From the IMG/VR virus record IMGVR_UViG_3300024343_000006: a stretch of DNA of 64,000 nucleotides. One strand, written 5' to 3'. Made by a program: the position numbers and the translations under genes. The notes beneath the pieces were generated by a model. It was not told the origin of the DNA, made no database searches, and was given only the letters and a program-made list of their open reading frames with translations. Below, piece after piece: positions 10,320 to 61,844 of this stretch (the stretch's first letter is position 1; each line of letters starts with the position of its first letter). This stretch comes from an uncultured virus (IMG/VR IMGVR_UViG_3300024343_000006) (taxonomy: Duplodnaviria > Heunggongvirae > Uroviricota > Caudoviricetes).

Positions 10320-10757
10320 ATGAATATAGAACAACTACAAGAGATGTGGGATGTTGATTGCCAAATAGATGATAACTATCTTGGTGAAACCACTACCGCT
10401 ACCCCCAAACTTCACGCTAAGTATTTAAAATTACTTGTCAATGTCAAACTAAAACACACTAAGTTTAGTTCTGATTGTAACATTCTCCGTAAAAATAAAT
10501 TTCGTTTGTATCGTGGTGAACTATCACGTGACGAATTAACACAACTTGGTTGGGAACAATGGCAGGGTGTTAAACCATTGAAGAATGAGATGGATGAATT
10601 TCTCTCAGGTGACACCGAACTAAATACTTTGAAGGTAAAGATAGATTATCTCGAAACGATGATTTATTTTCTTGAGTCAGTCCTTGGTCAAATTAAAGCA
10701 AGAGACTGGCAAATTAAAACTGCTGTTGAATGGAAGAAGTTTCTTGCTGGGATGTGA
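10320..10757 (+). CDS. uvsY: Recombination mediator UvsY
   Basis: TPKLHAKYL, RDWQIKTAVEWKKFLAG; upstream of uvsW. Confidence 0.9.
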   Translation: MNIEQLQEMWDVDCQIDDNYLGETTTATPKLHAKYLKLLVNVKLKHTKFSSDCNILRKNKFRLYRGELSRDELTQLGWEQWQGVKPLKNEMDEFLSGDTELNTLKVKIDYLETMIYFLESVLGQIKARDWQIKTAVEWKKFLAGM

Positions 10758-10759
10758 TA

Positions 10760-11323
10760 ATGAACTTTGTTAATATATTTCCTTCTATAATTGGGTATAA
10801 TGTAGATAAGCAATTTACAGATAAAATTTTGCCATTTGCAAATGAATACCTTGCGCAAGAAACTAGATTAACATATACCTGGAATTATAAAAACACATAT
10901 GGTAATGATTATGCGATGCGAGATAATAATTTAAAATTTATAAAAAAACGCATATATGATATGTGTTCTGAATATTTACAATCTCAACACAAAGTTGTGC
11001 CAAAGTCTATCGTTATAGAGTTATTTTTTAGTGAAATGGATGTTAATGATCATCATGATGAACATTGTCATCCAAATTGTATTCTTTCTGGAATATTATA
11101 TCTAAAAGTTCCTGATAATTCTGCTCCAATTATTTTTCATGATAGAAGTCCACACAGAGATTATGTGTATATTAAAAATATAGATGACACTGTAGATTTA
11201 ACAAAATATACAGTACCGCCAAAAGATGGGTTGATGTTAATATGGCCATCGTGGATGCAACACCAAGTCCCTTTAAATAAGTCTAATAGTAGAATAACCT
11301 GCGTATTTAATGCAGTATGGTAA
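10760..11323 (+). CDS. Putative 2OG-Fe(II) oxygenase
   Basis: HCHPNCILSGILY...WPSWMQHQV...RITCVFN (HxH..H..R). Confidence 0.8.
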   Translation: MNFVNIFPSIIGYNVDKQFTDKILPFANEYLAQETRLTYTWNYKNTYGNDYAMRDNNLKFIKKRIYDMCSEYLQSQHKVVPKSIVIELFFSEMDVNDHHDEHCHPNCILSGILYLKVPDNSAPIIFHDRSPHRDYVYIKNIDDTVDLTKYTVPPKDGLMLIWPSWMQHQVPLNKSNSRITCVFNAVW

Positions 11324-24172: not shown

Positions 24173-25648
24173 ATGAAGAAAATAATTGTACTAGGCGCAG
24201 GAACAGCAGGGTTAATCACTGCTCTCATTCTTAAATCTACCTTTCCGAAGTATCAAATCTCAGTTATTGAGTCTGGTGCGATTGGTATTATTGGAGTTGG
24301 TGAAGGTTCAACAGAACACTGGAAGATATTCACTGACTATTGTGGTATCAATACCAACAGATTGATTCGAGAGACAGATGGTGCTCTTAAGAAGGGTATC
24401 AAATTTGAGAATTGGAATGGTGATGGTGCATCTTATTTTCACTCATTGTCTCCTCCATTCTTTGATGAGTTTACAGACAGTGGTCAACGTCTAAATTTTA
24501 CGAAGTCTATGATCCATAAAGGTATTCCAACTGAAGATATTCTATTGGATACCAACTTTGTAACACAACAATCTGGTATTCAAAGCACTAATCAATATCA
24601 TTTTAACACTATGAAGTTAAATAAATTTCTTCATGATGTGTGTAAAGAAAAGGGTATTAATTTCACAGATGCCATTATTGATCAAGTGATGTTCTCAGAA
24701 AATGGAGATGTTGCTAAGTTAATAGACAATGCTGGTATTGAATATGTTGCAGATATCTTCATTGATAGTTCTGGATTCAAGAGAGTGATTTCTTCTAAGC
24801 AGGGTGCTAAGTGGATCTCATATAAAAAATATCTGCCAATGAATCATGCATTAGCATTTCCAACAAATGATATTTCTGATCTAAAACCCTATACACTTTC
24901 ACGTGCTCTTGGCTCTGGTTGGAACTGGAGAATTTCTACTCAAGGAAGGTATGGTAATGGTTATGTATTTTGTGATGAGTTCATTGATGCAACTAAAGCC
25001 CATGAAGAAATACAATCATTCTATACTGAAGAAGTAAAGGTAGCGAAGGATATTAAATTTGATGCTGGTCGTGTAGACAAATATTGGATTGACAACTGTA
25101 TCTCTGTTGGTCTTTCTGCATCATTTGTAGAACCACTTGAAGCATCTAGTATTGGTAACTCAATCCTACAGGCTTTTGGCATTGCAAAGTTGCTACCTCT
25201 TTGGGAACTTGACCGAAAGTACGCAGAGAAGTATAATAAAGACTTCACTAGGTGCTTTGACAATATTGTTGACTTTGTTCAGTTACATTACATGACCAAA
25301 AGAAATGATACTTTGTTCTGGAGAACTTTACCTGAGATGATGACTAAGACAGATTTTATCAAGGAACATTTAGAGATCTTTAAAAAGACAATACCGAATC
25401 AATCTCTTTTTATGGGCGAGTATCATATGTTCCAATCTCCAAATTGGGCTCAAGTAATGAATGGTCTTGGTTTATTGGATAGAGAATACATTAGCAATAA
25501 GTTACAAGAAGTTAGTGGAGAAGGTGCTATTAAAGATTCATACGGAAGGTATGATGCATATCTAAATGATACAGAAAGGGGTTCTTACATCGAACACAAG
25601 ACACTATTAGAACAGAATAGGATTGTTGTTAAACTTGACAGACGTTAA
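24173..25648 (+). CDS. Flavin-dependent (tryptophan) halogenase family protein
   Basis: GAGTAG, IGVGEGS, LKKGIKF, GWNWRI, FVEPLEASSI. Confidence 0.9.
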   Translation: MKKIIVLGAGTAGLITALILKSTFPKYQISVIESGAIGIIGVGEGSTEHWKIFTDYCGINTNRLIRETDGALKKGIKFENWNGDGASYFHSLSPPFFDEFTDSGQRLNFTKSMIHKGIPTEDILLDTNFVTQQSGIQSTNQYHFNTMKLNKFLHDVCKEKGINFTDAIIDQVMFSENGDVAKLIDNAGIEYVADIFIDSSGFKRVISSKQGAKWISYKKYLPMNHALAFPTNDISDLKPYTLSRALGSGWNWRISTQGRYGNGYVFCDEFIDATKAHEEIQSFYTEEVKVAKDIKFDAGRVDKYWIDNCISVGLSASFVEPLEASSIGNSILQAFGIAKLLPLWELDRKYAEKYNKDFTRCFDNIVDFVQLHYMTKRNDTLFWRTLPEMMTKTDFIKEHLEIFKKTIPNQSLFMGEYHMFQSPNWAQVMNGLGLLDREYISNKLQEVSGEGAIKDSYGRYDAYLNDTERGSYIEHKTLLEQNRIVVKLDRR

Positions 25649-34399: not shown

Positions 34400-34620
34400 C
34401 ACAAGAAATAACTTTACATCGTGATGCTTTAGAAAAGATTCTCAAACTCGTAGATGAACTTAACCCAAATGCAAGCCTTAGAGTTAGTGCTGGTTATGTA
34501 ACAATCTATTCTGATCAATCCTCTGGTATTGGTCAACTTATTGATGCTGAAGTAGACGTTGAACTCAATGGTCTTTACGGTAAGTTTAAACAACGAATTG
34601 TAGATGAGGGTAGCTGGTAA
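34396..34620 (+). CDS. Hypothetical protein
   Basis: Coupled ORF before gp43. Confidence 0.55.
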   Translation: MTQEITLHRDALEKILKLVDELNPNASLRVSAGYVTIYSDQSSGIGQLIDAEVDVELNGLYGKFKQRIVDEGSW

Positions 34621-37103
34621 TGGAATTTTATACATCGGTTCATCCGATTGGAGACAAGATCTATATTCGAGGTTATGAAAAGGGGAAACCTTACAAACGT
34701 AAACTAGATTTCCAACCAACATTTTATGTAACATCAAACAAACCCTCCAAGTGGAAAACACTGGAGGGAATTTTCGTTGATGAAATTAAACCTGGATCCA
34801 TTCGAGATGCTCGAGACTTCGTCAAACGATATGATGAGGTAGAAGGCTTTGCTGTTTATGGTAATACCAACTATGCATATCAGTATATCAGTGACAACTA
34901 TGACACTGTTAACTGGGACATGGAACAGATCAAAGTATTTACAATTGACATTGAAACTTCTACAGAGAATGGTTTCCCAGATGTTCGTCTTGCCAATGAA
35001 GAAGTTCTTCTAATCACCATCAAAGATCTACAGTCAAAGCGCATTATCACTTTTGGTTCTAAACCATTCGTGCATAATCGTGACGATGTAGTCTATATCA
35101 CTTGTCGTGATGAACAACATTTGCTAAAAGAGTTTATGCTTTTCTGGCAAGACAATTATCCAGATGTTGTCACTGGTTGGAATACCGACTTCTTCGATAT
35201 GCCATATCTTATTCGTAGGATTGATCGTGAACTTGGTGCAGATGTTTCTAAGAAAATTTCTCCATGGGGCATGATCAATGAGAGAAAGACATTCATTAAA
35301 GGTAATGAAGAACTTCATTACGATATCATTGGCATCTCTCAGCTAGATTATCTTGAACTCTACAAGAAGTATACCTATTCAAAACAGGAATCATATCGCC
35401 TCGACTATATCGCTGAGCAAGAACTTGCTGACAAAAAGAAACCGAATCCTGGAGTTGACTTCAAAGATTTCTATACTAACTATTGGCAAGCATTTGTTGA
35501 GTATAACATCCATGACGTAGAGTTGGTTGACAAACTCGAAGACAAGATGCGACTTTTAGAGTTGCACCTGACCATGGCGTATGCTGCAAAGATTAATCCA
35601 GAAGATGTTTACTCACAGGTTCGTATGTGGGATACTATCATCTATAATCATTTACGTGCTCGTCATATTGTCATTCCTGCTAAAACACACTCTGGTAAAG
35701 ATGCACAATTTGAAGGTGCGTATGTTAAAGATCCACTTGTTGGTATGCATAAGTGGGTGGCTTCCTTTGACTTGAACTCATTGTACCCGCATTTGATCAT
35801 GCAATACAACATCAGCCCAGAGACTTTAACGTCTGAGAAGATGCCAGTCAATGTAGAGAAGTTGCTTAACAAAGAGATTGATCTTTCGTATGCAAAGCAA
35901 CGAGATCTTTGTGTCACTGCGAATGGATGGACTTACACTAAAGAAGTCAAAGGGTTCATGCCTGAGTTGATGGAGAAGATGTATACTGACCGAAGCAAGT
36001 TTAAGAAACAGATGCTAAAGGTTCAACAGGAATACGAGAAAGACAAAACAAAGAAACATTTGTTGAAGGATATCTCTCGCTTAAACAATCTGCAGATGGC
36101 GATGAAGATTGCATTGAACTCTGCTTATGGTGCCATGGGTAATCAGTACTTCCGCTATTTCGATATTCGTATGGCTGAAGGAATTACTACTTCTGGTCAG
36201 TTGTCTATTCGTTGGATGGCTAATAAGTTGAATGCATTCCTTAACAAGACTTTAAAGACCGAAGGTAAAGATTTTGTTATTGCGATTGACACTGACTCGA
36301 TCTATCTAACTCTTGAAGAACTTGTTGAACGAACCTGTGAAGGTAAGACAACAGAACAAAAGATCAAGTTTATGGATAAGATCTGCGAAGATGTTTTCCA
36401 ACCATTCATTGATTCAGGTTACCAAGAGTTGGCTGATTATATGAATGCATATAGTCAAAAGATGCAGATGAAGCGAGAGGTTCTTGCTGACAAGGCAATC
36501 TGGACTGCCAAGAAACGCTATGTTATTAATGTTCATAATTCAGAAGGTGTACAGTATGAGAAGCCTAAGATCAAAGTTATGGGTTTGGAAATGGTCAAGT
36601 CGAGTACACCTGCTGTTATTCGTGACAAACTCAAAGATTCGTTACAAGTTATTCTCTCGGGAGATGAAAAGAAACTACACACGTATGTCACAGAGTTTAA
36701 AAAAGAGTTTGTCAAATTACCGATCGAAGACATAGCATTCCCACGTGGTGTTAATGGTATGAAGCAGTATGCAGGTTCTCCGATTTATACAAAGGGAACT
36801 CCAATCCATGTTCGTGGTTCTTTGTTGTATAATCACTATACTAAAAAGATGGGACTAGATAAAAAGTACCAAGCGATTCGAGATGGTGATAAGATCAAGT
36901 TTGTTTATGTTCAAAAACCAAATCCATTACAAGAAGATATCATTGCATTCCCGCAACAACTTCCAAAGGAACTTGGATTGGAATCATACATAGATTATGA
37001 CAAACAGTTCGAGAAAGTATTCTTGGACGCACTTCAAATTGTAATCGAACCATTGGGTTGGAAGACTCAAGAACAAAGTTCATTGGAGAACTTTTTTGGC
37101 TGA
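34620..37103 (+). CDS. gp43: Family B DNA polymerase
   Basis: IDIET, SFDLNSLYP, KIALNSAYG, IDTDS, KKRY; uninterrupted. Confidence 0.98.
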   Translation: MEFYTSVHPIGDKIYIRGYEKGKPYKRKLDFQPTFYVTSNKPSKWKTLEGIFVDEIKPGSIRDARDFVKRYDEVEGFAVYGNTNYAYQYISDNYDTVNWDMEQIKVFTIDIETSTENGFPDVRLANEEVLLITIKDLQSKRIITFGSKPFVHNRDDVVYITCRDEQHLLKEFMLFWQDNYPDVVTGWNTDFFDMPYLIRRIDRELGADVSKKISPWGMINERKTFIKGNEELHYDIIGISQLDYLELYKKYTYSKQESYRLDYIAEQELADKKKPNPGVDFKDFYTNYWQAFVEYNIHDVELVDKLEDKMRLLELHLTMAYAAKINPEDVYSQVRMWDTIIYNHLRARHIVIPAKTHSGKDAQFEGAYVKDPLVGMHKWVASFDLNSLYPHLIMQYNISPETLTSEKMPVNVEKLLNKEIDLSYAKQRDLCVTANGWTYTKEVKGFMPELMEKMYTDRSKFKKQMLKVQQEYEKDKTKKHLLKDISRLNNLQMAMKIALNSAYGAMGNQYFRYFDIRMAEGITTSGQLSIRWMANKLNAFLNKTLKTEGKDFVIAIDTDSIYLTLEELVERTCEGKTTEQKIKFMDKICEDVFQPFIDSGYQELADYMNAYSQKMQMKREVLADKAIWTAKKRYVINVHNSEGVQYEKPKIKVMGLEMVKSSTPAVIRDKLKDSLQVILSGDEKKLHTYVTEFKKEFVKLPIEDIAFPRGVNGMKQYAGSPIYTKGTPIHVRGSLLYNHYTKKMGLDKKYQAIRDGDKIKFVYVQKPNPLQEDIIAFPQQLPKELGLESYIDYDKQFEKVFLDALQIVIEPLGWKTQEQSSLENFFG

Positions 37104-37716
37104 ACATTCATACTACCCACTAGTAAACATACAAGACAGACGTGTAGTTCTTTCTGTTGATGACTTCTTTGATTTAAAGGAACTTGATTATATTAGAAGT
37201 TGCTTAAACACAGAGAAGCCAACTGCTGCTATTGTTGGATATACTGATCCAAAGAATGTAGAAGACTACGAAAAGATGGTCAAGAAAGCACACGAACGTA
37301 GAAAGTCTAATGTATGTTTCTTGGACTTCTTTGAATATGAGTTTTTCTATAAAAAGTTATGTACAGCAATTCACCATGTAAACCTTACTAATTTTAACAA
37401 AGTTTTATATGGTATAGAAGCATTACAGTTTGCAGAGTATGATTCTTTGTATGAAGGATTTTATGGAGTCCATCCAGATGCTGTAAATACAGATAATGCA
37501 TTAACAAGATCGTTATCATTTTCTATGCAGATGTCTAAACCAGAAGAGTATGAAGGTGGTGAAGTTCTAGTCTATGATGGTAATACTACATATACAGCAA
37601 ACAAGAAATATGGATCAATTACATTCTTTGATTCTAGAATGTTACACGAAGTCACTCCTGTCACCAGTGGCTTTAGAAGAAGTATAGTTGGATGGATTCT
37701 TGGACCAAGAGTATGA
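37096..37716 (+). CDS. 2OG-Fe(II) oxygenase (PKHD/prolyl-hydroxylase-like); start uncertain
   Basis: HPD...YEGGE...LHEVTPVTSGFRRSIVGW. Confidence 0.85.
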   Translation: MAEHSYYPLVNIQDRRVVLSVDDFFDLKELDYIRSCLNTEKPTAAIVGYTDPKNVEDYEKMVKKAHERRKSNVCFLDFFEYEFFYKKLCTAIHHVNLTNFNKVLYGIEALQFAEYDSLYEGFYGVHPDAVNTDNALTRSLSFSMQMSKPEEYEGGEVLVYDGNTTYTANKKYGSITFFDSRMLHEVTPVTSGFRRSIVGWILGPRV

Positions 37717-38261
37717 GCAACATTAGAATAATTAAAACTGGAATCAATGTTTCAAAGATATTGAAGCAACTTCAACAACATCCAACTGACTGGGATCATC
37801 AAAAACGAATTGAGGATATCGGTGACTCAACTCAATCTGGATGGAAATTTGCGCCAGTTGGTACACTGCAATTAGTCATGGGAGGTGTTACAAACAAAGA
37901 CGAATTTGTTGGTAACACTGAGATATGTATATCAACCAGAGCGATTGCTAATCATACAGAAGTTGTAGGATTCATGAGAAGAAATTTTAAGAAATTTAGT
38001 CGTTGTGGATTCCTAGCATTGCCAGTTGGTGAACGTGTAGAAAAACATATTGATCATGGGACTTATTATCTTACAAGAGATCGATACCATCTATCAATCC
38101 AAGGTACGTATAGATACTTTTGCGGTGATGAATATGTAGATGTTGAACCTGGAACTTTGCTCTGGTTCAATAATAAACTTATGCATGGAACTGAAAACAC
38201 AGGTGACTGTACACGAATTACATTTGTGTTCGATGTACCACACTCTAAGTCTAATCCATAG
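37713..38261 (+). CDS. Aspartyl/asparaginyl beta-hydroxylase-like 2OG oxygenase
   Basis: HIDHGTYY..RDRYHL, WFNNKLMHG, RITFVFD. Confidence 0.8.
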   Translation: MSNIRIIKTGINVSKILKQLQQHPTDWDHQKRIEDIGDSTQSGWKFAPVGTLQLVMGGVTNKDEFVGNTEICISTRAIANHTEVVGFMRRNFKKFSRCGFLALPVGERVEKHIDHGTYYLTRDRYHLSIQGTYRYFCGDEYVDVEPGTLLWFNNKLMHGTENTGDCTRITFVFDVPHSKSNP

Positions 38262-39902: not shown

Positions 39903-40230
39903 ACATCTTGCAGAACCGCCAGTTACAGTAGTCGAGAATAGGAAGACTGGTCTCGACGCATTACGTTTGACTGATGGACCATACAAAGGTATAATCTATA
40001 CCTATGGAAAAGTTTCTTTTGATGAAGAAGGAACCGAGAAAGTTCATATGAAATTTGAATATGACATCCTAGAAGATTCAGGTGTTAGTTATGATGACGA
40101 TGAATTTGAAATATACATTGGTCACATTCTCCAACACTTGATCACTAAGCAACTCCAAGAAAATAGCATTACATACACTGGTGGAATTGATGAGAATAGA
40201 ACAGAAGATCCTGAGCAGTCTGATACATGA
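39895..40230 (+). CDS. Hypothetical protein (gp40 position)
   Basis: GPYKGIIYTYGKV; between uvsX and gp41. Confidence 0.6.
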   Translation: MNKHLAEPPVTVVENRKTGLDALRLTDGPYKGIIYTYGKVSFDEEGTEKVHMKFEYDILEDSGVSYDDDEFEIYIGHILQHLITKQLQENSITYTGGIDENRTEDPEQSDT

Positions 40231-41584
40231 TGAAAAGTATTGTCGTAAAGTTATCCCATTTATTAAAAAAGATTATTTCTCTGAACGAAACGAAGCTGTC
40301 CTTGCAACTGAAGTAATTAAATTCTTCACAACATATAACAAGCCAGCAACTAAAGAGATTTTATCAATTGAAGTAGGTAACAGGAAAGACTTAAACGATA
40401 AAGAACTGTCAGACATTAATGAATACATAAAAAACATCAGCAATGAACCAGTCAATGAAGACTGGTTGATGGAAAACACCGAGAAATTTTGTAAAGACAG
40501 GGCTGTATATAATGCAATTCTTAAATCAATCCAAATTATTGATGGTCGGGATAAAACCCATACAAGTGATGCTCTTCCCTCTATTCTTAGTGATGCTCTT
40601 GCTGTGTCTTTCGATAACCATGTTGGTCATGATTACATCGATGACCATACAAGTCGTTATGAATTCTATCACAGGGTTGAAGAAAAAGTTCCTTTCGATT
40701 TGGATATTTTTAACAAAATCACCAAAGGTGGATTGAGTAAGAAAACTTTAAACATTGTATTGGCTGGTACTGGTGTTGGTAAGTCTCTGTTCATGTGTCA
40801 CATGGCTGCAGGAGTATTGACTCAGGGTAGGAATGTTCTTTACATTACTATGGAGATGGCTGAAGAAAGAATCGCAGAACGTATCGATGCAAACTTACTG
40901 AACCTTACTATGGATGAGTTGAAAGTTATCGATAAAGATATTTACGAGAATCGTATTGATAAGATTGCTAAAAAGACTAAAGGTAAGTTGATCATTAAAG
41001 AATATCCAACTGCTGGCGCACACTCTGGTCACTTCAGAGCATTGTTGGAAGAATTAAAGTTGAAGAGAGAATATGCGCCAGACATCATATTCATTGACTA
41101 TTTGAACATTTGTGCGTCTCAACGCATGAAGCAAGGTGGAAGTGTTAACTCTTATACATATATTAAGAGTATTGCAGAAGAGTTAAGGGGTCTTGCAGTT
41201 GAGTATAATGTTCCGATTGTATCGGCTACACAAACTACTCGATCTGGATTCACAAACTCTGATCCAGGACTCGAAGATACTTCAGAGTCATTCGGCTTAC
41301 CAGCAACTGCTGACTTTATGGTTGCATTGATTAGCAATGAAGAATTAGAACAGTTGAATCAAATAATTGTCAAGCAATTAAAAAACAGGTATAATGATCC
41401 TAGTTACTTTAAAAGATTCGTAGTTGGGATTGATAGATCTAAAATGAGGTTGTATGATGTCGAAGCCTCTGCACAAATTGGATTGTCTGACTCTGGTCAA
41501 GAAGATGATGGTCCAGTTTTTGACAAAGGTACATTTGGTAAGAGAATGAATACTGAAGAAAAATTTAGCGGATTTAAGTTTTAG
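40190..41584 (+). CDS. gp41: Replicative helicase
   Basis: LAGTGVGKS, IFIDYLNIC, SATQTTRSG, SESFGLPATAD. Confidence 0.97.
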   Translation: MRIEQKILSSLIHDEKYCRKVIPFIKKDYFSERNEAVLATEVIKFFTTYNKPATKEILSIEVGNRKDLNDKELSDINEYIKNISNEPVNEDWLMENTEKFCKDRAVYNAILKSIQIIDGRDKTHTSDALPSILSDALAVSFDNHVGHDYIDDHTSRYEFYHRVEEKVPFDLDIFNKITKGGLSKKTLNIVLAGTGVGKSLFMCHMAAGVLTQGRNVLYITMEMAEERIAERIDANLLNLTMDELKVIDKDIYENRIDKIAKKTKGKLIIKEYPTAGAHSGHFRALLEELKLKREYAPDIIFIDYLNICASQRMKQGGSVNSYTYIKSIAEELRGLAVEYNVPIVSATQTTRSGFTNSDPGLEDTSESFGLPATADFMVALISNEELEQLNQIIVKQLKNRYNDPSYFKRFVVGIDRSKMRLYDVEASAQIGLSDSGQEDDGPVFDKGTFGKRMNTEEKFSGFKF

Positions 41585-41592
41585 GAGAGAAT

Positions 41593-42894
41593 ATGGTAAA
41601 AGTTATCGTAGCAAAAGAAAAGTTTGATTGTTCAAAGTTAGAAGGAACATTCGTAGACGAATCTCATTATGATCATCTCATCGAAGAAGATACTGATGTT
41701 TACATGCCATCATCAATTGATGGTGGAGATCCTTACAGTGAGAAGCGTATTGTTCTAAAGTTTCGTAAGAACTACTTCACACAAGAGCAACAAGATCAAG
41801 CATATCTTGGTCTGAAAGATGCAGCAACTGAAACTCAGAACAGAGGTAAAGCAGCTGGACCACGTGGCGACAAATTGGGTAATCGTGAGTGGGTTACTGA
41901 GTATGAATATGCCATCTTAGAATACTTTGAAGAAGCAAAGGCTATGCTTGGTGAAGATCCAGTTGAACAGATTCGTCAGAAATATAAAAACGCTGTTCAG
42001 AAACCATCCACACGAAATAATGTTTGGGGTATCCAAGCAGTTAAGAAAGATGGTTTTGATTTCGAGAAGTGGGTTGAAGCGACAAGCAAACTATCAGATA
42101 CAGAACAACATTACGAATCCCTGCGCATTCAAAAGAAATATGTTTGTCCAACAACTTATGCTAATGGAGTTCTTTCTGGCATTGCTGGTTGGTTCGATCG
42201 TTACCCACGTATCCCTTATGGTCGTGCTACTTCTTATACTGCAAATAACTTTGAAAAGTTTAAGATGTCATATCCATTCCTTCAGCAACTATCTAAAGGA
42301 TTTAAGGAATATCTTCCAGAGCGTTTTGCAGCGCAGATGTCTGCAGCAAACAAACTTGATTCAGCATTCTTAGTTCCTGAAACTCCATTCACAACTATCA
42401 CTGTTAACAATACATTTAGAACTGCTGCTCACTACGATGCAGGTGACTTGAATGAAGGTTTGTCGAATCTATTGACATTGTCTAATGATGGTAAGTATAC
42501 TGGTGGATATCTGATTGCTCCTGAGTATCGTGTTGCAGTTAATCCACGTCCAGGTGATTTGCTTCTTATCAACAATCACGAAGTTATGCATGGTAATACT
42601 CCGATTGTTTGTCCAGAAGGTTCAGAGCGTATTAGTCTTGTTGTTTACTTCAGAGAAAAGATGCTCGAGTTGGGTAGCAAAGCATATGAAGATGCACGCT
42701 ATGAATATGTAGAGGGACGCAGGTTAAATAAAGAACACCCAGAACATAAAGATCGCCATCTTTGGAATGGTGTTACTGCAGGTATGTGGGATGAGAAAGA
42801 GTGGTATGACTTCTTGAGTGCTAAACAGGGTGGTGAAGATATGCTTGCTAAATATCATCCTACAACCAAAGGTGCTCTTGAGGAGTTTTTCTAA
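41593..42894 (+). CDS. TET/JBP-family 2OG-Fe(II) dioxygenase (putative 5-methylpyrimidine oxygenase)
   Basis: FTTITVNNTFRTAAHYDAGD (HxD), GGYL..PEYRVAV..RPGDLL, HEVMHGNT, RISLVVYFREKM. Confidence 0.85.
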   Translation: MVKVIVAKEKFDCSKLEGTFVDESHYDHLIEEDTDVYMPSSIDGGDPYSEKRIVLKFRKNYFTQEQQDQAYLGLKDAATETQNRGKAAGPRGDKLGNREWVTEYEYAILEYFEEAKAMLGEDPVEQIRQKYKNAVQKPSTRNNVWGIQAVKKDGFDFEKWVEATSKLSDTEQHYESLRIQKKYVCPTTYANGVLSGIAGWFDRYPRIPYGRATSYTANNFEKFKMSYPFLQQLSKGFKEYLPERFAAQMSAANKLDSAFLVPETPFTTITVNNTFRTAAHYDAGDLNEGLSNLLTLSNDGKYTGGYLIAPEYRVAVNPRPGDLLLINNHEVMHGNTPIVCPEGSERISLVVYFREKMLELGSKAYEDARYEYVEGRRLNKEHPEHKDRHLWNGVTAGMWDEKEWYDFLSAKQGGEDMLAKYHPTTKGALEEFF

Positions 42895-42896
42895 TA

Positions 42897-43592
42897 ATGT
42901 GTTCCATAATTGGTGCTGTGTTAAAGAATCCTCGTCATGAGGATTTTGAAATGATTCGTAGAGTATTCCTTGAGTCTAAGATTCGAGGAATGCATGCGAC
43001 AGGTATATCTTTTTTACCGCATTGGAGTAAGTCAGTTGTAACTATCAAAGAAGCAATGCCATCTGATAGATTTATTGATACTCATATGCATATTGATAAT
43101 ATGAAGGAGATGGTTAATGACGATGGTACTCTTTACCTTATTGGTCACTGTAGATATAGCACTAGCGATTTATCTTATAATCAACCGCTAGCAAATGAAT
43201 TGAAGTCCATTGTTCATAATGGAGTTATTACACAAGAACTTCCTGAGAACTGGGGTAACATTTATCCTTACACATTTGAAACTAAGAATGACTCTGAGTT
43301 AGTATTACATTCAGATGACCCACTCAGAGAGTTCCCAGATGCATCTATGGCAGTGTGTGAACTTTATGTAGATCGTAAGTTGCGATTCTATCGTAATGGT
43401 AAACGTCCATTATACTTGACAAGTATTGAATGTGGGAGTATAATTACCTCTACGGCAGATGTTCCAAAACGTGCTGAGGTTGCAGGGTTTCCAGTTAATG
43501 TTCTTATGAATCATTACAATACATTTGATGGTGACCTTGCATTGACGATTGAGCGAGTTGATATTAAAGATGCATTAGATTACCAAAAATGA
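42897..43592 (+). CDS. Class II (Ntn) glutamine amidotransferase, stand-alone
   Basis: N-terminal MC, RGMHATG, GHCRYST, HNGVI, NDSE. Confidence 0.88.
   Translation: MCSIIGAVLKNPRHEDFEMIRRVFLESKIRGMHATGISFLPHWSKSVVTIKEAMPSDRFIDTHMHIDNMKEMVNDDGTLYLIGHCRYSTSDLSYNQPLANELKSIVHNGVITQELPENWGNIYPYTFETKNDSELVLHSDDPLREFPDASMAVCELYVDRKLRFYRNGKRPLYLTSIECGSIITSTADVPKRAEVAGFPVNVLMNHYNTFDGDLALTIERVDIKDALDYQK
43416..43444 (+). promoter_or_regulatory. Perfect sigma70 consensus embedded in the amidotransferase gene
   Basis: TTGACA-17bp-TATAAT. Confidence 0.7.
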
Positions 43593-44227
43593 TATTAGTT
43601 GATTTAGCAAAAGTAGAAAACATTATTTCAAATATTCCAGCTGGTAAGAATACAAAATTCTTATCGGCTGCACATTCATTATGGTATCGGTTTCACAATT
43701 ATGACAAAGCATTACCAATGGCTTATGAAGTTAATGGTGATGTTGTTTGTTTAATCTTTGCTACATTCAATCGTGATGGTTATGCCAACCTGTATGAGAT
43801 CGTAACACTCGAAGGAAAAGAAGGAAATGGATACGCATCAAAGTGTTGGGACGCATGGATTAAATACGCAGTCGAAGAACGAAAGTCTAAACGACTTAAA
43901 ATCTCTTGCACACCTTCTTCAGTCACATGGCATTATCGCAATGGACTCATCTTCTGGGCAGTTGACCCGACTGGCTCGTTACGTTCTGACCAACCATTAT
44001 TCTCAACTAGGCAAGAGCAAATTAGCTACAGAAATAATGCTATTATCAATCCATCCTCTGCTCTGCCACCAAGCAAAGCACAAGATCAGTTTAGGTTAGA
44101 AGGATTAGAATTATATAAATGGGGTGACAAGAAGAAAGAAAAAACTCAAACAGCAATTGATGCAGTTGGTACAGCATGGCTACGAGATGCTCTTATGAAT
44201 CAACCAACACTACAAGAATTTTTATAA
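43589..44227 (+). CDS. GNAT-fold acetyltransferase-like protein
   Basis: LYEIVTLEGKEGNGYAS (motif A-like), ISCTPSSVTWHYRNGL (motif B-like). Confidence 0.65.
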   Translation: MILVDLAKVENIISNIPAGKNTKFLSAAHSLWYRFHNYDKALPMAYEVNGDVVCLIFATFNRDGYANLYEIVTLEGKEGNGYASKCWDAWIKYAVEERKSKRLKISCTPSSVTWHYRNGLIFWAVDPTGSLRSDQPLFSTRQEQISYRNNAIINPSSALPPSKAQDQFRLEGLELYKWGDKKKEKTQTAIDAVGTAWLRDALMNQPTLQEFL

Positions 44228-45243
44228 TGGATTATCGTTTACAAGAAAATCGTAAAGAAGCATTCATACGCTGGTACGCATGGTCATTGAAGTATGATGA
44301 TTGTGATCCAGCAGTATGGGCAACGAACTATCTTAATAAAAGATATGAACACAATGATGAACAGCGTCTTTGGTTTGCATGGCTTTATGGTAATACATAC
44401 CAGTTGCAAACTGCATGGGTACTAATGAATGAGTTTCCTGATTATGAATTAGCAACAGTTGATAGAATCACTCAATGGAATACAGCTAACTATAAGAGAC
44501 TACGATATCAAACTGATACAAAGTGGAACAAAGGACATCTTCCTGCCATGTTCGAGTCTTACCAAAAATTTATAGGAAGTGGAACACAACGTGATAGGAT
44601 GGAAAGTTTTTATGCATCATCAGAGGAAGACACTTTTGATAGACTGTGGGATGGGGTTAAGTCGAGCCTGCATAAATTTGGTCGTTATTCCACTTGGTTT
44701 TACTTACAGCATCTTAAACATACTGCTGGCATCTCTGTTAATCCTACTTCTCTCATGCTGGACGATTATGATGGTTCCCGTAGTCATCGTAATGGACTTC
44801 TGTATGCCCTTGGACAAGAATCCGATTGTGATCGAAGACTCAGTAATATGGAGTATTCAAACCTCGAAGTACATGCAAAAGAAATTCTGGAAGAAAGTAA
44901 AAGACGATTCCCTGACTTAGCAGGACAGATTGATTTCTTTACCATGGAAACCTGCTTGTGTTCTTTTAAGAAACTATTCAGAGAACACCATGGACGTTAC
45001 CTTGGTTACTATCTAGATCGTCAGGCTGAAGAGATTGTTAAAGCAGAGAATGATAGTTGGTATGGTATTGATTGGGATGTTCTTTGGCAAGCACGTGAAG
45101 AAACAATTGATTTTAGATTAGACCATAAACGTGGTATCGATAAAGAAAGGTTTTCTTCTTTCCTGAATTCAGGTAAATTAGAAAATTTAGAATGGATGTT
45201 TAATGATGAAGAATCTATACTAATTGGATTGGAGAATTTTTAA
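44227..45243 (+). CDS. Amino acid:DNA transferase-like (aGPT-PPlase clade 2, HhH glycosylase-related)
   Basis: DCDP, EQRLWFAWLYGNTY, RYQTDTK, KFGRYSTWFYLQHL, SHRNGL, METCLCSFKK. Confidence 0.75.
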   Translation: MDYRLQENRKEAFIRWYAWSLKYDDCDPAVWATNYLNKRYEHNDEQRLWFAWLYGNTYQLQTAWVLMNEFPDYELATVDRITQWNTANYKRLRYQTDTKWNKGHLPAMFESYQKFIGSGTQRDRMESFYASSEEDTFDRLWDGVKSSLHKFGRYSTWFYLQHLKHTAGISVNPTSLMLDDYDGSRSHRNGLLYALGQESDCDRRLSNMEYSNLEVHAKEILEESKRRFPDLAGQIDFFTMETCLCSFKKLFREHHGRYLGYYLDRQAEEIVKAENDSWYGIDWDVLWQAREETIDFRLDHKRGIDKERFSSFLNSGKLENLEWMFNDEESILIGLENF

Positions 45244-45686
45244 TGGCTATTAATAAACCACAGCCCAACTGGGGTGATAATATGATTGTGACTGGTACAG
45301 GTTTACAACCATTTTCAAATGGTGGGACTCTCAGTATCAATACTGCAATGAATACAGGCACTGTTGCAGCAAGTGGATCTTATACTACAAATACCATAAG
45401 TGTACAAAAACCTGTAGATGAAGTTTTAGATCAATTTGATATGAATGAAGTTGTCGTTGAACATAAAGTTACAACATTTGAACTTGCCAAATTGAAAGAA
45501 ACTGTAGACTACCACGACATCATTAAACAAAATTTGTCTAAGAAGATTTCTGAAAGTATAATTAACAAAGCAAGATTCACGAAGAAGCAAGATCTTGACT
45601 CAGATACTATATCTTTTCGTGGAAGAGTATGGGTATTTAATAAAGAAGAATTGATGGATTTAATAAAGGAAGTCAGAAATGTTTGA
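45243..45686 (+). CDS. Hypothetical protein within the modification operon
   Basis: Coupled on both sides. Confidence 0.6.
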   Translation: MAINKPQPNWGDNMIVTGTGLQPFSNGGTLSINTAMNTGTVAASGSYTTNTISVQKPVDEVLDQFDMNEVVVEHKVTTFELAKLKETVDYHDIIKQNLSKKISESIINKARFTKKQDLDSDTISFRGRVWVFNKEELMDLIKEVRNV

Positions 45687-46281
45687 TAAATTTGGAGTAG
45701 TTGACGAGATTAGTGTTCAGTTGATTAGAAACCCCACTAAGACTAGAAAGATTATCGCAGTTGGTGGGCAACCTGGAACTGGTAAGACTACACTGTTTCG
45801 TAAATTTATGGAAAATAAACAGTGGATTGTAGGTGAACCAGCCAAGTTGGTATCAGCATCCTATAATACCGAACGAGATCTATACATCCTTGGTAAATAT
45901 GATGAGGGTGAAACCTTTGCTGGAACAGATCGGCTTTCGATGGCAGTCCAACCAAACCTCCAAGAGTGGGTTAAGTCTAATAACTGCAATATCCTTTTCG
46001 AGGGAGATCGAGTCTTCAACCAGTCATTCCTAGAGTTTTGTATGGAGTTACCTAATACCGAATTGCAAGTGGTCTATTTGGCAGTCCCGAAACCTATGTT
46101 AGAACAGAGATACAAAAATAGGGGTTCTGACCAGTCTGAAACTTTCCTAAAGGGTCGGGAGACTAAATATAGTAATCTATTGTCAAACTTTGACTTGATG
46201 CCTTATATTACTGAGTTTGTAAACACTAACTTAGAGGAGCAGGGGAAAGTACTTGCGCACTTGGAGAAACAGTTTAGTTAA
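45679..46281 (+). CDS. P-loop kinase, 5-hmdU DNA kinase-like
   Basis: IIAVGGQPGTGKTT, LGKY..GETFAGTDRLSM, FEGDR, RYKNRGSDQSETFLKGRETK. Confidence 0.72.
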   Translation: MFDKFGVVDEISVQLIRNPTKTRKIIAVGGQPGTGKTTLFRKFMENKQWIVGEPAKLVSASYNTERDLYILGKYDEGETFAGTDRLSMAVQPNLQEWVKSNNCNILFEGDRVFNQSFLEFCMELPNTELQVVYLAVPKPMLEQRYKNRGSDQSETFLKGRETKYSNLLSNFDLMPYITEFVNTNLEEQGKVLAHLEKQFS

Positions 46282-46301: not shown

Positions 46302-46997
46302 ATGAACTTCCTAGAAAAAGCCAATTACGACTGGATGGAACTGCTCAACTTTTATGAGCGTCCATTCAGAGCTAAACTCACACCCTCAAAAGTCTGGATT
46401 GATCTAGATCGTTATAAGAACGATTCTGTCGGTCTTGCCAACTATGCTAAGAAGTGGCGCACCAAAGTCGAATGGCGTAAGGAAAAGTCTAAAGCAAAGT
46501 GGACTGAAACCTATGTAGGAATTGGTGGTGAATATGCTCCAGATGAGAGACAGATAACCATACAAATCTATACTGATAGGTTCAATTCATTCTCCTTTAC
46601 AAATAAGTCTTGGACAGCATTTAAGATGAGATTTATTCAAACTCTCATGCACGAATTGATACACTTCATGCAGTACGAGAGAAGAGATGACTCATGGAGT
46701 AACTACGTTGTACCATATAAAAAGGTGGGTATAGCAAAGAAGGATGAACAGAGAGCATACCTCTCTGAGTTTGATGAGATACAAGCATATGCGCATTGTG
46801 TGTATCTAGATTTTAAGATGCGTAGACCCAGAGTAGAAATCAACATCCTGTTGAATCGTTATAAAAAGAAACGAGATTCGTCTACTCTTCACTTCTTCTT
46901 AAAGACGTTTGATTACGATTTAAGAAACAACATGGCCACTCGAAAGATCATAGATCAAATCGGTAAATGGGATCGTAAATACAACCGAATGACTTGA
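46302..46997 (+). CDS. Hypothetical protein with HEXXH zincin-like motif
   Basis: TLMHELIHFMQ...YLSEFDEIQAYA. Confidence 0.65.
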   Translation: MNFLEKANYDWMELLNFYERPFRAKLTPSKVWIDLDRYKNDSVGLANYAKKWRTKVEWRKEKSKAKWTETYVGIGGEYAPDERQITIQIYTDRFNSFSFTNKSWTAFKMRFIQTLMHELIHFMQYERRDDSWSNYVVPYKKVGIAKKDEQRAYLSEFDEIQAYAHCVYLDFKMRRPRVEINILLNRYKKKRDSSTLHFFLKTFDYDLRNNMATRKIIDQIGKWDRKYNRMT

Positions 46998-61304: not shown

Positions 61305-61844
61305 ATGTTAGAAGGTATAAATCAGTGGGACTCTTTCTTCACAAAAGAAGAATATGATAATGTTGACAAAGAACTATTAAATCATGAGTGGGTTTTTGGT
61401 GCCAGTCCCAATAATAATTTACTTGAAGGTAATAAGGTAAGACAATTCTGGTATAAAGACTTGATGGAGTCTGAATATATTAAAGAGTTGTTTAGATTCA
61501 GAACAGAAGATTATCTAAATGCAAAAGTAGAGACAATGCGTCTCTACGCAAATGGACAATCACATGGAATGGCAGGACATATACATGAGGATGTTCCACC
61601 AGATGAACCTGGAATTTGTGGTAGTATAGTATATTTCTTTCAGGCTGACTGGAAACCAGAATATGGTGGGCATTTAATCTTCTTGTCACCAGAAGATCCA
61701 AACAGAGTGATGTTGTCAGTATTCCCGAGATCAAACTCCGCAGTTATATTCAACTCAAAGTTATCTCACATGGCATTCGATCCATCAGTATACTGTACAA
61801 ATCAAAGAATAAGCATAGCATATAAATTTAGGGTAAAAGAATGA
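61305..61844 (+). CDS. 2OG-Fe(II) oxygenase between nrdA and nrdB
   Basis: IHED, WKPEYGG, LSHMA, RISIAYK. Confidence 0.8.
   Translation: MLEGINQWDSFFTKEEYDNVDKELLNHEWVFGASPNNNLLEGNKVRQFWYKDLMESEYIKELFRFRTEDYLNAKVETMRLYANGQSHGMAGHIHEDVPPDEPGICGSIVYFFQADWKPEYGGHLIFLSPEDPNRVMLSVFPRSNSAVIFNSKLSHMAFDPSVYCTNQRISIAYKFRVKE

What the first reader, a model, noticed from the sequence alone, without database searches (positions are those of the whole stretch)
42897..45243. Amidotransferase + transferase + GNAT: possible ammonia shortcut to 5-(acetyl)aminomethyl-uracil
Seen: a stand-alone Ntn glutaminase (Cys2, GHCRYST, HNG) with no synthetase domain, coupled to a GNAT-like gene and the DNA transferase. 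No PLP decarboxylase, radical SAM or flavin lyase gene is in the operon. Established: PaMx11 reaches 5-acetylaminomethyl-dU by glycine transfer, flavin-dependent cleavage and acetylation. Inference: glutamine-derived NH3 could be handed to the transferase to give 5-aminomethyl-dU directly. Alternatively the Ntn hydrolase trims a Gln/Glu adduct on DNA. The GNAT would then acylate the amine, giving either a new route or a new base.
Basis: inference. Interest (0 to 1): 0.75.

Follow-up and report, generated by a model that had tools for sequence, protein, structure and literature searches.

The report
Glutamine-fed phage thymine hypermodification cassette
A T4-like phage carries a tightly packed gene set that most likely turns thymine in finished DNA into an aminomethyl, probably acylated, base, and comparison with relatives suggests that the nitrogen comes from glutamine through an amidotransferase working with the DNA transferase, a step not yet shown for any DNA.

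Summary
Window 42897-45243 encodes a stand-alone class-II (Ntn) glutaminase, a divergent GNAT-fold protein and an amino acid:DNA transferase (AADT). They sit between a Tet/JBP dioxygenase and a P-loop DNA kinase, in a coupled operon of a T4-like phage.

This cassette type is published (Lee 2021; O'Toole 2026). Earlier agents of this scan met it several times on other DNA. Those papers leave the glutaminase's role open.

- In 63 of 63 AADT-anchored relatives with Tet in range, the glutaminase is present.
- The acyl-tailoring slot varies: GNAT-like alone, or amidoligase plus GNAT.
- Of 14 fused homologues, 10 are N-terminal glutaminase plus C-terminal AADT, the usual class-II amidotransferase layout.
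- One complete phage genome keeps homologues of PaMx11 gp48-gp52. It has a glutaminase-AADT fusion where PaMx11 has the glycine transferase and FAD lyase, and no FAD lyase anywhere.

The GNAT-like protein is not a detectable gp48 orthologue, so the acyl group is open. Two glutaminase-amidoligase and two glutaminase-GNAT fusions keep rivals alive.

Verdict: a new variant of a known kind, with a testable new enzymatic step.

The parts
41593..42894 (+). Tet/JBP-family Fe(II)/2OG dioxygenase (5mYOX), 433 aa. Predicted thymine-to-5-hmU dioxygenase acting on DNA. Ends in a polymerase-like tail, GALEEFF.
   Evidence: PF12851, 3.2e-23, 82.2 bits against cut-off 34.9. Adjacent to the GATase in 77 of 77 distinct loci that hold both Tet and ADDT. 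No C5-cytosine methyltransferase in G001 or in four complete relatives. Tail.
42897..43592 (+). Stand-alone class-II (Ntn) glutamine amidotransferase domain, 231 aa. Cys2 is the nucleophile after Met removal.
   Evidence: PF13522, 30.2 bits against 27; 21 of 21 relatives match it. C2/R86/N108/G109/D132 align to GlmS C1/R73/N98/G99/D123 and are invariant. AF2 pLDDT 89.3; Foldseek top hits are GlmS/GFAT and PurF. Fused to ADDT in 10 of 14 long homologues.
43589..44227 (+). Divergent GNAT-fold protein ('GNl'), 212 aa, with a conserved C-terminal extension of about 80 aa and a polymerase-like tail, PTLQEFL. Predicted N-acyltransferase acting on the DNA-borne amine.
   Evidence: PF00583 below cut-off (18.8 against 20.7). 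554 homologue clusters, the best 120 at 76-85% identity, many with precomputed PF00583. hhalign to sister-locus GNAT: probability 67%. Foldseek hits all GNAT, on a low-confidence model. G76, G79 and G81 of the xxxGxG loop are invariant. The 4-nt ATGA overlap with the GATase stop comes from the coordinates.
44227..45243 (+). Amino acid:DNA transferase (AADT, formerly aGPT-Pplase2), 338 aa from the conserved MDYRL start; the ORF is open from 44176. Predicted to displace the phosphate of 5-PmdU with an N-nucleophile. Tail IGLENF.
   Evidence: PF18724, 4.4e-21, 76.1 bits. The E-T-x-x-C motif aligns to the catalytic Glu243/Thr244/Cys247 of PaMx11 gp46 (residues from PMC11472151 section 14). 76-81% identical across both cassette architectures.
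45243..45686 (+). 147-aa protein of unknown function. Fast-evolving; membership in the pathway is doubtful.
   Evidence: No Pfam or PHROG match. 36-58% identity in most relatives where neighbours keep 75-85%. Absent in 10 of 70 loci that hold ADDT through p231 and from the non-T4 cassette L176.
45679..46281 (+). P-loop kinase (Ploopntkinase3), 200 aa. Predicted 5-hmdU DNA kinase.
   Evidence: PF18751, 2.4e-9, 37.4 bits against 27. 24% identical to PaMx11 gp49 kinase, E 3e-5. Present in all 70 loci that extend from ADDT to p231.
46302..46997 (+). 231-aa protein with an HExxH motif (HELIH). A conserved neighbour in T4-like relatives, probably not part of the portable cassette.
   Evidence: No Pfam, PHROG or NCBIfam match. 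No tblastn hit in cultured phages. Atlas gives only weak leads, SprT-like on 16% of one cluster at score 0.85. Absent beside the cassette in L176, L175 and L178.

Best explanation
The five genes Tet/JBP, GATase, GNAT-like, AADT and kinase form a post-replicative thymine hypermodification pathway.

Proposed steps (all inferred; none assayed here):
1. The dioxygenase oxidises thymine in DNA to 5-hmU.
2. The P-loop kinase makes 5-phosphomethyl-U.
3. The AADT attacks C6 with its conserved Cys, expels phosphate and forms the exocyclic methylene intermediate.
4. Ammonia, released from glutamine on Cys1 of the Ntn glutaminase held against the AADT, captures that intermediate in place of a free amino acid. 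The product is 5-aminomethyl-dU in one step. This replaces the glycine transfer plus FAD-dependent cleavage of PaMx11.
5. The GNAT-like protein N-acylates the new primary amine. The acyl group is most simply acetyl, giving a 5-acetylaminomethyl-dU-type base.

Sister phages replace step 5 with an amidoligase plus a GNAT, which presumably builds a longer acyl or aminoacyl chain on the same amine.

What is shown by sequence: gene identities, catalytic residues, co-occurrence and fusions.
For: 1. The GATase has all five GlmS-type catalytic and glutamine-binding residues, invariant in 21 relatives. It has a confident Ntn fold closest to true amidotransferases: GlmS/GFAT and PurF at TMq 0.62-0.74, EgtC only at rank 41. 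NCBIfam's weak best hits are AsnB, PurF and GlmS.

2. Co-occurrence. Of 80 ADDT-anchored IMG/VR loci, 63 reach Tet upstream and 63 of 63 hold the GATase. Fourteen are cut off before that position and three hold the GATase without Tet in range. In the pooled set, 77 of 77 distinct loci with Tet through ADDT hold it. The slot after it varies: GNl in 50, amidoligase plus GNAT in 25, another trio in 2.

3. Fusions. A 'longer' search found 14 fused homologues at E<=1e-10. By my HMMs, 10 are N-GATase plus C-ADDT, at 28-40% identity to the window GATase, and one of them is seen on 10 contigs. Three are uninterrupted ORFs in IMG/VR loci L175, L177 and L178. This is the domain order of PurF, GlmS and AsnB.

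4. The pairing crosses backgrounds. It occurs with a ThyA-like hydroxymethylase and an HMUDK kinase instead of Tet and Ploopntkinase3 (L175, L178). It also occurs in a non-T4 phage (L176).

5. L178 lies in a record rated 100% complete. It keeps homologues of PaMx11 gp49 (39%), gp48 acetyltransferase (35%), gp50 (32%), gp51 (39%) and gp52 (34%). It has the GATase-ADDT fusion where PaMx11 has gp46+gp47. No gp47 or DAO-family gene is in that record, while the PaMx11 control rings. gp48 acts on 5-NmdU and not on N-alpha-GlyT (PMC8989533, passages).

6. No DAO-family enzyme and no C5-methyltransferase in four complete relatives, two of them with the window's architecture.

7. Polymerase-like C-terminal tails are on Tet, GNl and ADDT, but on 0 of 88 GATases. 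This fits a GATase that does not itself dock on DNA.

8. Recalled precedent, from no call: tRNA MnmEG uses either glycine or ammonium on the analogous intermediate, and PurF displaces pyrophosphate with glutamine-derived NH3.
Against: - No product, activity or binding was measured.
- Two GATase-amidoligase fusions (P0147, P0273) and two GATase-GNl fusions (P0271, P0272) also exist. Fusion to a neighbour therefore does not single out the AADT.
- Fusion of consecutive pathway enzymes would look the same as an amidotransferase.
- EgtC, a stand-alone gamma-glutamyl amidohydrolase, is nearly as close in fold, with TMq 0.61-0.66.
- AADT cassettes work without any GATase: Hangman has ParB-Tet-ADDT-kinase, and the ViI-like loci gave no GATase hit by tblastn.
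- GATase-linked AADTs are not shown to be one clade. The tree needs 2 changes; one clade is not rejected, p-AU 0.157.
- GNl has no detectable profile similarity to gp48, probability 0.2%.
- The residue differences at the gp46 glycine-binding columns rest on an alignment of about 20% identity.
Confidence: 0.55

Rival explanations
1. The AADT installs a free amino acid, for example glutamine or glutamate. The Ntn enzyme then acts as an amidohydrolase on the DNA-borne adduct, an EgtC-like or gamma-glutamyl-type trimming.
For: Characterised stand-alone class-II GATase-like proteins such as EgtC are amidohydrolases (recalled). EgtC is a close structural match, TMq 0.61-0.66. All AADTs characterised so far use free amino acids (PMC8989533, passages). 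Fusions could simply join consecutive steps. Phage GATase homologues in phiM6 and StenR_269 sit with amidoligases, gamma-glutamyl cyclotransferases and a gamma-glutamyl hydrolase.
Against: The GATase lacks the DNA-enzyme tail carried by Tet, ADDT and GNl: 0 of 88. The alpha-amino-binding Asp132 and alpha-carboxylate-binding Arg86 are kept; an N-alpha-linked adduct would block the former. In L178 a gp48-like enzyme, specific for the free aminomethyl group in PaMx11, follows the fusion with no lyase in the genome. Deamidating Gln to Glu on DNA has no evident benefit.
Confidence: 0.2
2. The GATase feeds ammonia to a tailoring enzyme rather than to the AADT. The acceptor would be the amidoligase in sister loci, or the GNAT-like protein here. 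The carboxylate of an amino acid already attached by the AADT would be amidated, in the manner of AsnB.
For: Two GATase-amidoligase fusions and two GATase-GNl fusions. The GATase gene is always directly followed by GNl or by the amidoligase in the T4-like clade, and overlaps GNl by 4 nt.
Against: The window's architecture has no ATP-dependent ligase. The partner next to the GATase changes, while the GATase keeps 62-67% identity and the AADT is constant. Each of these four fusions is on one contig, and in genes that overlap by 4 nt a single indel would create one. L175 has the GATase-ADDT fusion plus kinase with no recognisable GNAT or amidoligase in the sequenced flank.
Confidence: 0.12
3. The cassette modifies 5-methylcytosine or 5-hmC rather than thymine.
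For: The Tet/JBP family includes 5mC oxidases. O'Toole 2026 notes that some ParB-less clade C1 members showed no activity on either base in an earlier assay. No ParB is in the window or in G001.
Against: No PF00145 methyltransferase in G001 or in four complete relatives. The same GATase-AADT pair occurs with dUMP-hydroxymethylase-type clusters that make 5-hmdU. The window encodes ThyX, so dTMP is made.
Confidence: 0.05

Closest known systems
Metavirome Tet_JBP (5mYOX clade C1) thymidine-hypermodification clusters (Lee et al. 2021, PMC8989533; O'Toole et al. 2026, PMC13229309)
   Same: The same gene families in one cluster: Tet_JBP, GATase (PF13522/PF13537), P-loop kinase PF18751 and AADT PF18724. 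No C5-methyltransferase. Both papers list GATases, and Lee 2021 also amidoligases, as co-associated genes (passages read).
   Different: The passages I read give the GATase no function; Lee 2021 calls these genes 'functions not yet known'. The window's cassette has no ParB, which O'Toole 2026 links to one subclass. Sister loci have one. I could not see the supplementary datasets, which may list this very clade.
Pseudomonas phage PaMx11 pathway to 5-acetylaminomethyl-dU (gp49 kinase, gp46 glycine:DNA transferase, gp47 FAD lyase, gp48 acetyltransferase)
   Same: Kinase, AADT with the same E-T-x-x-C catalytic motif, and a GNAT-fold enzyme. The predicted end product is of the same type. A related metagenomic cluster (L178) shares gp48-gp52 homologues.
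   Different: No FAD lyase, and a GATase instead. 5-hmU comes from a DNA dioxygenase rather than a dUMP hydroxymethylase. The gp46 glycine-contacting Trp146 and Lys150 columns hold Tyr and Phe (low-identity alignment). The GNAT-like protein is not detectably related to gp48 beyond the fold.
Class-II (Ntn) glutamine amidotransferases PurF, GlmS and AsnB
   Same: N-terminal Cys nucleophile, the Arg/Asn-Gly/Asp glutamine site and the Ntn fold. In 10 fused homologues the glutaminase is N-terminal to the acceptor domain. PurF likewise replaces a (pyro)phosphate leaving group with NH3 (recalled).
   Different: In the window the glutaminase is a separate polypeptide. The proposed acceptor is a base in polymeric DNA, and the acceptor domain (AADT) is unrelated to any known synthase domain. 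No channel has been seen.
EgtC and other stand-alone GATase-II-like amidohydrolases
   Same: Size (about 230 aa), stand-alone state and fold, TMq 0.61-0.66.
   Different: Only 11% identity, ranked below GlmS/PurF. PF13230 (the YafJ/EgtC-type Pfam family; the label is recalled) did not match any of the 21 relatives at E<=1.

Membership tests
Class-II (Ntn) glutamine amidotransferase | N-terminal Cys nucleophile directly after the initiator Met | tested here: met
   The protein starts MC. C2 is invariant in 21 relatives. All 14 fused homologues start MC.
Class-II (Ntn) glutamine amidotransferase | Glutamine-binding and oxyanion residues (GlmS Arg73, Asn98, Gly99, Asp123) | tested here: met
   The HMM alignment to 1xff places R86, N108, G109 and D132 on these residues. 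All are invariant. The roles of the residues are recalled.
Class-II (Ntn) glutamine amidotransferase | Ntn alpha-beta-beta-alpha fold | tested here: met
   AF2 pLDDT 89.3, pTM 0.89. Foldseek: 88 PDB matches at E<=0.001, led by GlmS/GFAT and PurF.
Class-II (Ntn) glutamine amidotransferase | Coupling to an acceptor (synthase) domain that receives NH3 | tested here: inconclusive
   10 of 14 fused homologues carry ADDT C-terminally; 2 carry GNl and 2 an amidoligase.
Class-II (Ntn) glutamine amidotransferase | Glutaminase activity and NH3 transfer | not testable with these tools
   Needs an enzyme assay with 15N-amide glutamine.
Amino acid:DNA transferase (AADT, PF18724) | Family profile match above the curated cut-off | tested here: met
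   76.1 bits against 26.2.
Amino acid:DNA transferase (AADT, PF18724) | Catalytic Glu-Thr-x-x-Cys of PaMx11 gp46 (Glu243, Thr244, Cys247) | tested here: met
   METCLC aligns to these columns and is invariant in 18 relatives. The residues come from PMC11472151 sections 14 and 22.
Amino acid:DNA transferase (AADT, PF18724) | Free amino acid as donor (gp46 Trp146 and Lys150 hold glycine) | tested here: inconclusive
   The aligned columns hold Tyr and Phe in the window, and Tyr/His with Phe/Tyr/Thr/Ile/Ala in all 14 GATase-linked AADTs. The alignment is at about 20% identity.
GNAT acyltransferases | Family profile match above the curated cut-off | tested here: inconclusive
   PF00583 scores 18.8 against 20.7 for the window protein. 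PF00583 is precomputed on many close homologues.
GNAT acyltransferases | GNAT fold and the beta4-alpha3 pyrophosphate-binding loop (Q/R-x-x-G-x-G/A) | tested here: inconclusive
   All listed Foldseek hits are GNATs, but the model has pLDDT 54.7. G79 and G81 are invariant, while position 1 of the loop is Gly rather than Gln/Arg. The motif definition is recalled.
PaMx11 gp48-type 5-NmdU N-acetyltransferase | Detectable homology to gp48 | tested here: not met
   hhalign probability 0.2% for the GNl profile against gp48. The sister-locus GNAT gives 85% and the L178 GNAT is 35% identical to gp48.
PaMx11-type 5-AcNmdU pathway | FAD-dependent glycinyl-thymine lyase (gp47) | tested here: not met
   No gp47 or PF01266 match in G001, in G002-G005 (gp47 query) or in four complete relatives. 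PaMx11 as positive control matched.
5mYOX clade C1 thymidine-hypermodification cluster (O'Toole 2026) | Tet_JBP with P-loop kinase PF18751, AADT PF18724 and GATase; no C5-methyltransferase | tested here: met
5mYOX clade C1 thymidine-hypermodification cluster (O'Toole 2026) | Associated ParB activator (ParB-dependent subclass) | tested here: not met
   No ParB_N in the window ORFs or in G001. ParB is present in 10 of 77 related loci.

The most novel reading that the evidence does not exclude
The stand-alone glutaminase and the AADT form a split class-II amidotransferase whose acceptor is a nucleobase in polymeric DNA. Glutamine-derived ammonia displaces phosphate from 5-phosphomethyl-uracil and makes 5-aminomethyl-uracil in one step. 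This would be a glutamine-dependent amination of DNA. Phages would then use it as the common platform for a family of swappable acylations (GNAT, amidoligase plus GNAT, radical SAM) that give several DNA bases not yet described.
Probability: 0.5. Interest if true: 0.75.

Novelty: new variant of a known kind. Interest (0 to 1): 0.6.

Why it matters
Every AADT characterised in the papers I read attaches a free amino acid, which other enzymes then cut down. An AADT fed by a glutaminase would add a new acceptor class, DNA, to the glutamine amidotransferases. It would explain why GATase genes recur in published thymidine-hypermodification clusters. It would also give a two-enzyme route to a primary amine on DNA, a handle of interest for enzymatic DNA labelling.

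The family is large. There are 169 representative clusters at E<=1e-30, and 580 AADT-relative stretches in IMG/VR alone for this clade. The resulting base may therefore be common in aquatic T4-like phages. Such a base would affect restriction, sequencing and metagenome recovery of their DNA.

Tried and rejected
Nothing was folded, so the interface question stays open.
Member and contig counts come only.
- Megablast of the cassette against cultured phages gave no match. tblastn of GNl and of p231 against cultured phages gave no match.
- Profile searches of the PDB with the ADDT did not reach gp46. With the GATase they reached only GlmS, at E 1.6.
- A viral-contig scan for the context of the GATase-amidoligase fusion P0147 found nothing.
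- The Iyer et al. 2013 paper, recalled as the source of the aGPT-Pplase and Tet/JBP predictions, could not be fetched. I cannot say whether it mentions GATase-AADT fusions.
- Promoter and terminator scans were at chance level.
- I considered the window's Trp-halogenase-like flavoenzyme as a hidden lyase and rejected it. It is absent from complete genomes that carry the cassette.
- I considered p147 and p231 as pathway members and rejected them as core. They are absent from the non-T4 cassette and from the fusion loci.
- The GNl structure prediction was poor (pLDDT 54.7), so I draw nothing from its C-terminal half.
- Literature: searches found no paper proposing ammonia or glutamine as the AADT donor. 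The library lacks most subscription journals.
Full report
**What is there**

The window is part of a T4-like myovirus. It encodes the gp20 portal, gp23 capsid protein, sheath, UvsX/Y/W, clamp and clamp loader, RegA, ThyX and RNR.

Seven + strand genes sit between the replicative helicase (40181-41584) and a run of unknown genes:
- Tet/JBP dioxygenase, 41593-42894.
- Class-II GATase domain, 42897-43592.
- A 212-aa GNAT-like protein, here called GNl, 43589-44227.
- AADT, 44227-45243; the ORF is open from 44176.
- A 147-aa unknown, 45243-45686.
- Ploopntkinase3 kinase, 45679-46281.
- A 231-aa HExxH protein, 46302-46997.

From Tet to kinase the genes are separated by 2 nt or overlap by 1 to 8 nt (coordinates; ADDT start). 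No + strand terminator-like site lies inside the cassette. Promoter-like sites are at chance level.

**The observation**

A profile of 21 relatives aligns to the GlmS glutaminase domain (1xff). Window C2, R86, N108, G109 and D132 fall on C1, R73, N98, G99 and D123, and all five are invariant. The roles of these GlmS residues are from memory.

The AF2 model is confident (pLDDT 89.3). Its best PDB matches are GlmS/GFAT and PurF (TMq 0.62-0.74). EgtC appears at rank 41.

GNl is a weaker GNAT call:
- Pfam is below cut-off.
- Many close homologues carry a precomputed PF00583 hit.
- hhalign to the true GNAT of sister loci gives probability 67%.
- A poor model (pLDDT 54.7) still finds only GNAT N-acetyltransferases.

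The window holds no PLP, radical SAM or DAO-type gene in the cassette.

**Relatives**

No cultured phage is close. IMG/VR holds many relatives: 335 GATase stretches and 580 ADDT stretches matched, and the best 80 of each were fetched.

After merging loci with identical sequence at the anchor, 77 distinct loci contain both Tet and ADDT. All 77 have the GATase directly after Tet, or after one small insert.

In the set anchored on ADDT alone:
- 63 of 80 reach Tet, and 63 of 63 have the GATase.
- 14 are truncated before that position.
- 3 have the GATase without Tet in range.

The slot between GATase and ADDT varies:
- GNl in 50 loci, 6 of them with an extra 225-aa gene.
- An amidoligase-like protein plus a true GNAT in 25, 10 of them with a ParB.
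- A third trio in 2.

A B12-type radical SAM gene is inserted after ADDT in 6 of 70 loci. ADDT and GNl are as conserved as the helicase (about 75-85% identity). The GATase is at 62-70% and p147 at 36-58%.

A 12-kb contig of a different, non-T4 phage carries ParB-Tet-GATase-GNl-ADDT-kinase without p147 or p231 (L176). These five enzymes, with or without ParB, are therefore the portable unit.

**Fusions**

The GATase profile finds 2177 representative clusters at E<=0.001 and 169 at E<=1e-30. Of the best 150, 148 are 257 aa or shorter and two are long.

A search restricted to longer proteins gave 14 fused forms at E<=1e-10.
- 10 are GATase plus ADDT.
- 2 are GATase plus GNl.
- 2 are GATase plus amidoligase.

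All 14 start MC. The ADDT fusions are diverse, at 28-40% identity to the window GATase and 555-647 aa. One is recorded on 10 contigs. I saw three as uninterrupted frames in IMG/VR loci (L175, L177, L178). The other four fusions are each on a single contig. Where the unfused genes overlap by 4 nt, one indel would create such a fusion, so an artefact cannot be excluded for them.

**Contexts of the GATase-ADDT fusions**

L175: fusion, 5-hmdU DNA kinase (PF18748, 2e-24), a 208-aa ORF, then a ThyA-like gene.

L178: fusion, kinase, a 159-aa ORF, GNAT, HMUDK helical domain, ThyA-like gene, then YfbR-like gene.

Gene by gene, L178 matches PaMx11:

| L178 gene | PaMx11 homologue | Identity |
|---|---|---|
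| kinase | gp49 | 39% |
| GNAT | gp48 | 35% |
| HMUDK helical domain | gp50 | 32% |
| ThyA-like | gp51 | 39% |
| YfbR-like | gp52 | 34% |

The fusion stands where PaMx11 has gp46 (glycine:DNA transferase) and gp47 (FAD lyase). The L178 record is rated 100% complete. It contains no gp47 homologue and no DAO-family gene, while both searches find gp47 in PaMx11 itself.

Lee et al. report that gp48 acetylates 5-NmdU and does not act on the glycinyl precursor (PMC8989533, passages). A cluster that keeps a gp48-like enzyme but has no lyase needs another source of the aminomethyl group, and the fused glutaminase-AADT is the obvious one. This is the strongest single argument I found for the ammonia route.

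**The substrate base**

No C5-cytosine methyltransferase is in the nearest record G001 (110 kb, 67% complete) or in four complete relatives with terminal repeats. Two of those four have the window's architecture. The same four lack DAO-family enzymes. The window encodes ThyX. Thymine is therefore the likely substrate, as Lee 2021 and O'Toole 2026 argue for such clusters.

**The AADT**

The catalytic Glu-Thr-x-x-Cys of gp46 (PMC11472151, sections 14 and 22) aligns to METCLC.

gp46 Trp146 and Lys150 hold glycine. Their columns show the following:
- Tyr or His, and Phe/Tyr/Thr/Ile/Ala, in all 14 GATase-linked AADTs.
- Leu and Asn in three ViI-like, GATase-free AADTs, and Leu and Ser in Hangman.

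The alignment is at about 20% identity, so I treat this as a lead only.

In a 20-row tree the GATase-linked AADTs fall into four subclades in an unresolved fork. A single clade is neither shown nor rejected (p-AU 0.157). ViI-like plus Hangman form their own clade with support 90/94. Rows were chosen by hand. gp46, L179 and Hangman sit on long branches.

**Tails**

A strict pattern for the polymerase's C-terminal peptide hits 4 of the 80 + strand ORFs of the window: the DNA polymerase, Tet, GNl and ADDT.

With a looser pattern in relatives:
- Kept: Tet 62/82, GNl 57/57, ADDT 49/67, polymerase 29/34.
- Absent: GATase 0/88, kinase 0/58, p147 0/49, p231 0/48, amidoligase 0/26.

Earlier notes of this scan proposed that these are sliding-clamp-binding tails. 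I confirmed the pattern here but not the binding. It fits a glutaminase that does not itself dock on DNA.

**What is known, and novelty**

Lee 2021 lists amidoligase and 'glutaminotransferase' genes among co-associated genes of unknown function. That paper also describes Tet_JBP-containing contigs. O'Toole 2026 states that the ParB-dependent subclass is consistently linked with GATases, P-loop kinases and AADTs.

The word 'ammonia' does not occur in the main text of Lee 2021. My five literature searches found no paper that proposes glutamine or ammonia as the AADT donor. The library is incomplete, and I could not read Iyer et al. 2013 or the supplements.

Earlier agents of this scan found this cassette repeatedly on other DNA and reached the same reading. 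Two of them report a predicted glutaminase-transferase complex, which I could not test.

The cassette is therefore a known kind. The glutamine-fed step is an unpublished hypothesis that is now better supported.

**Limits**

- Everything is comparative.
- Rival roles remain possible: an adduct amidohydrolase, or an ammonia supply to the amidoligase or GNl.
- The acyl group added by GNl is unknown.
- GNl is not detectably related to gp48.

Noticed in passing
window 34620-37103 (PolB), 41593-42894, 43589-44227, 44227-45243: Tet, GNl and ADDT end in a peptide like the DNA polymerase's C-terminus (SSLENFFG, GALEEFF, PTLQEFL, IGLENF). Only 4 of the 80 + strand ORFs match the strict pattern. Relatives keep it; GATase, kinase, p147, p231 and amidoligase lack it. 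This may be a sliding-clamp docking tail. Binding was not tested.
   Followed up: partly
window 24173-25648: A tryptophan-halogenase-like flavoenzyme (PF04820, 1e-96) lies between the sliding-clamp and clamp-loader genes. It is present in G001 but absent from the complete cassette-bearing records G002 and G006, so it is not tied to the cassette. Its function in the phage is unknown.
   Followed up: partly
L173 (Stenotrophomonas phage DLP_6) and L174 (Caulobacter phage Cr30): Two cultured T4-like phages carry a Tet homologue, at 51% and 46% identity and annotated 'SNF2 DNA repair protein', with no annotated GATase, ADDT or kinase beside it. They could serve to test thymine oxidation in a culturable relative.
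   Followed up: no
window 46302-46997: A 231-aa protein with an HExxH motif follows the kinase in 70 related T4-like loci. It has no family match and no hit in cultured phages. It may be a metallohydrolase; whether it touches the modification is unknown.
   Followed up: partly
L001 (Sinorhizobium phage phiM6) and L002 (Stenotrophomonas phage StenR_269): The nearest GATase homologues in cultured phages (25% identity) are longer proteins. They sit in clusters with amidoligases, an ATP-grasp enzyme, gamma-glutamyl cyclotransferases and, in phiM6, a gamma-glutamyl hydrolase, with no ADDT annotated nearby. This looks like a different, unexplained GATase-amidoligase system.
   Followed up: no
window 37096-38261, 10730-11323, 61305-61844: The window encodes four further 2OG-Fe(II) oxygenase or cupin-type proteins outside the cassette. 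Their substrates are unknown.
   Followed up: no
L039, L078/L080, L093, L122, L158: Some relatives insert a B12-binding-type radical SAM gene (474-498 aa) just after ADDT. Others insert a 225-aa or a roughly 200-aa unknown gene beside the GATase. This hints at further variants of the final base.
   Followed up: partly
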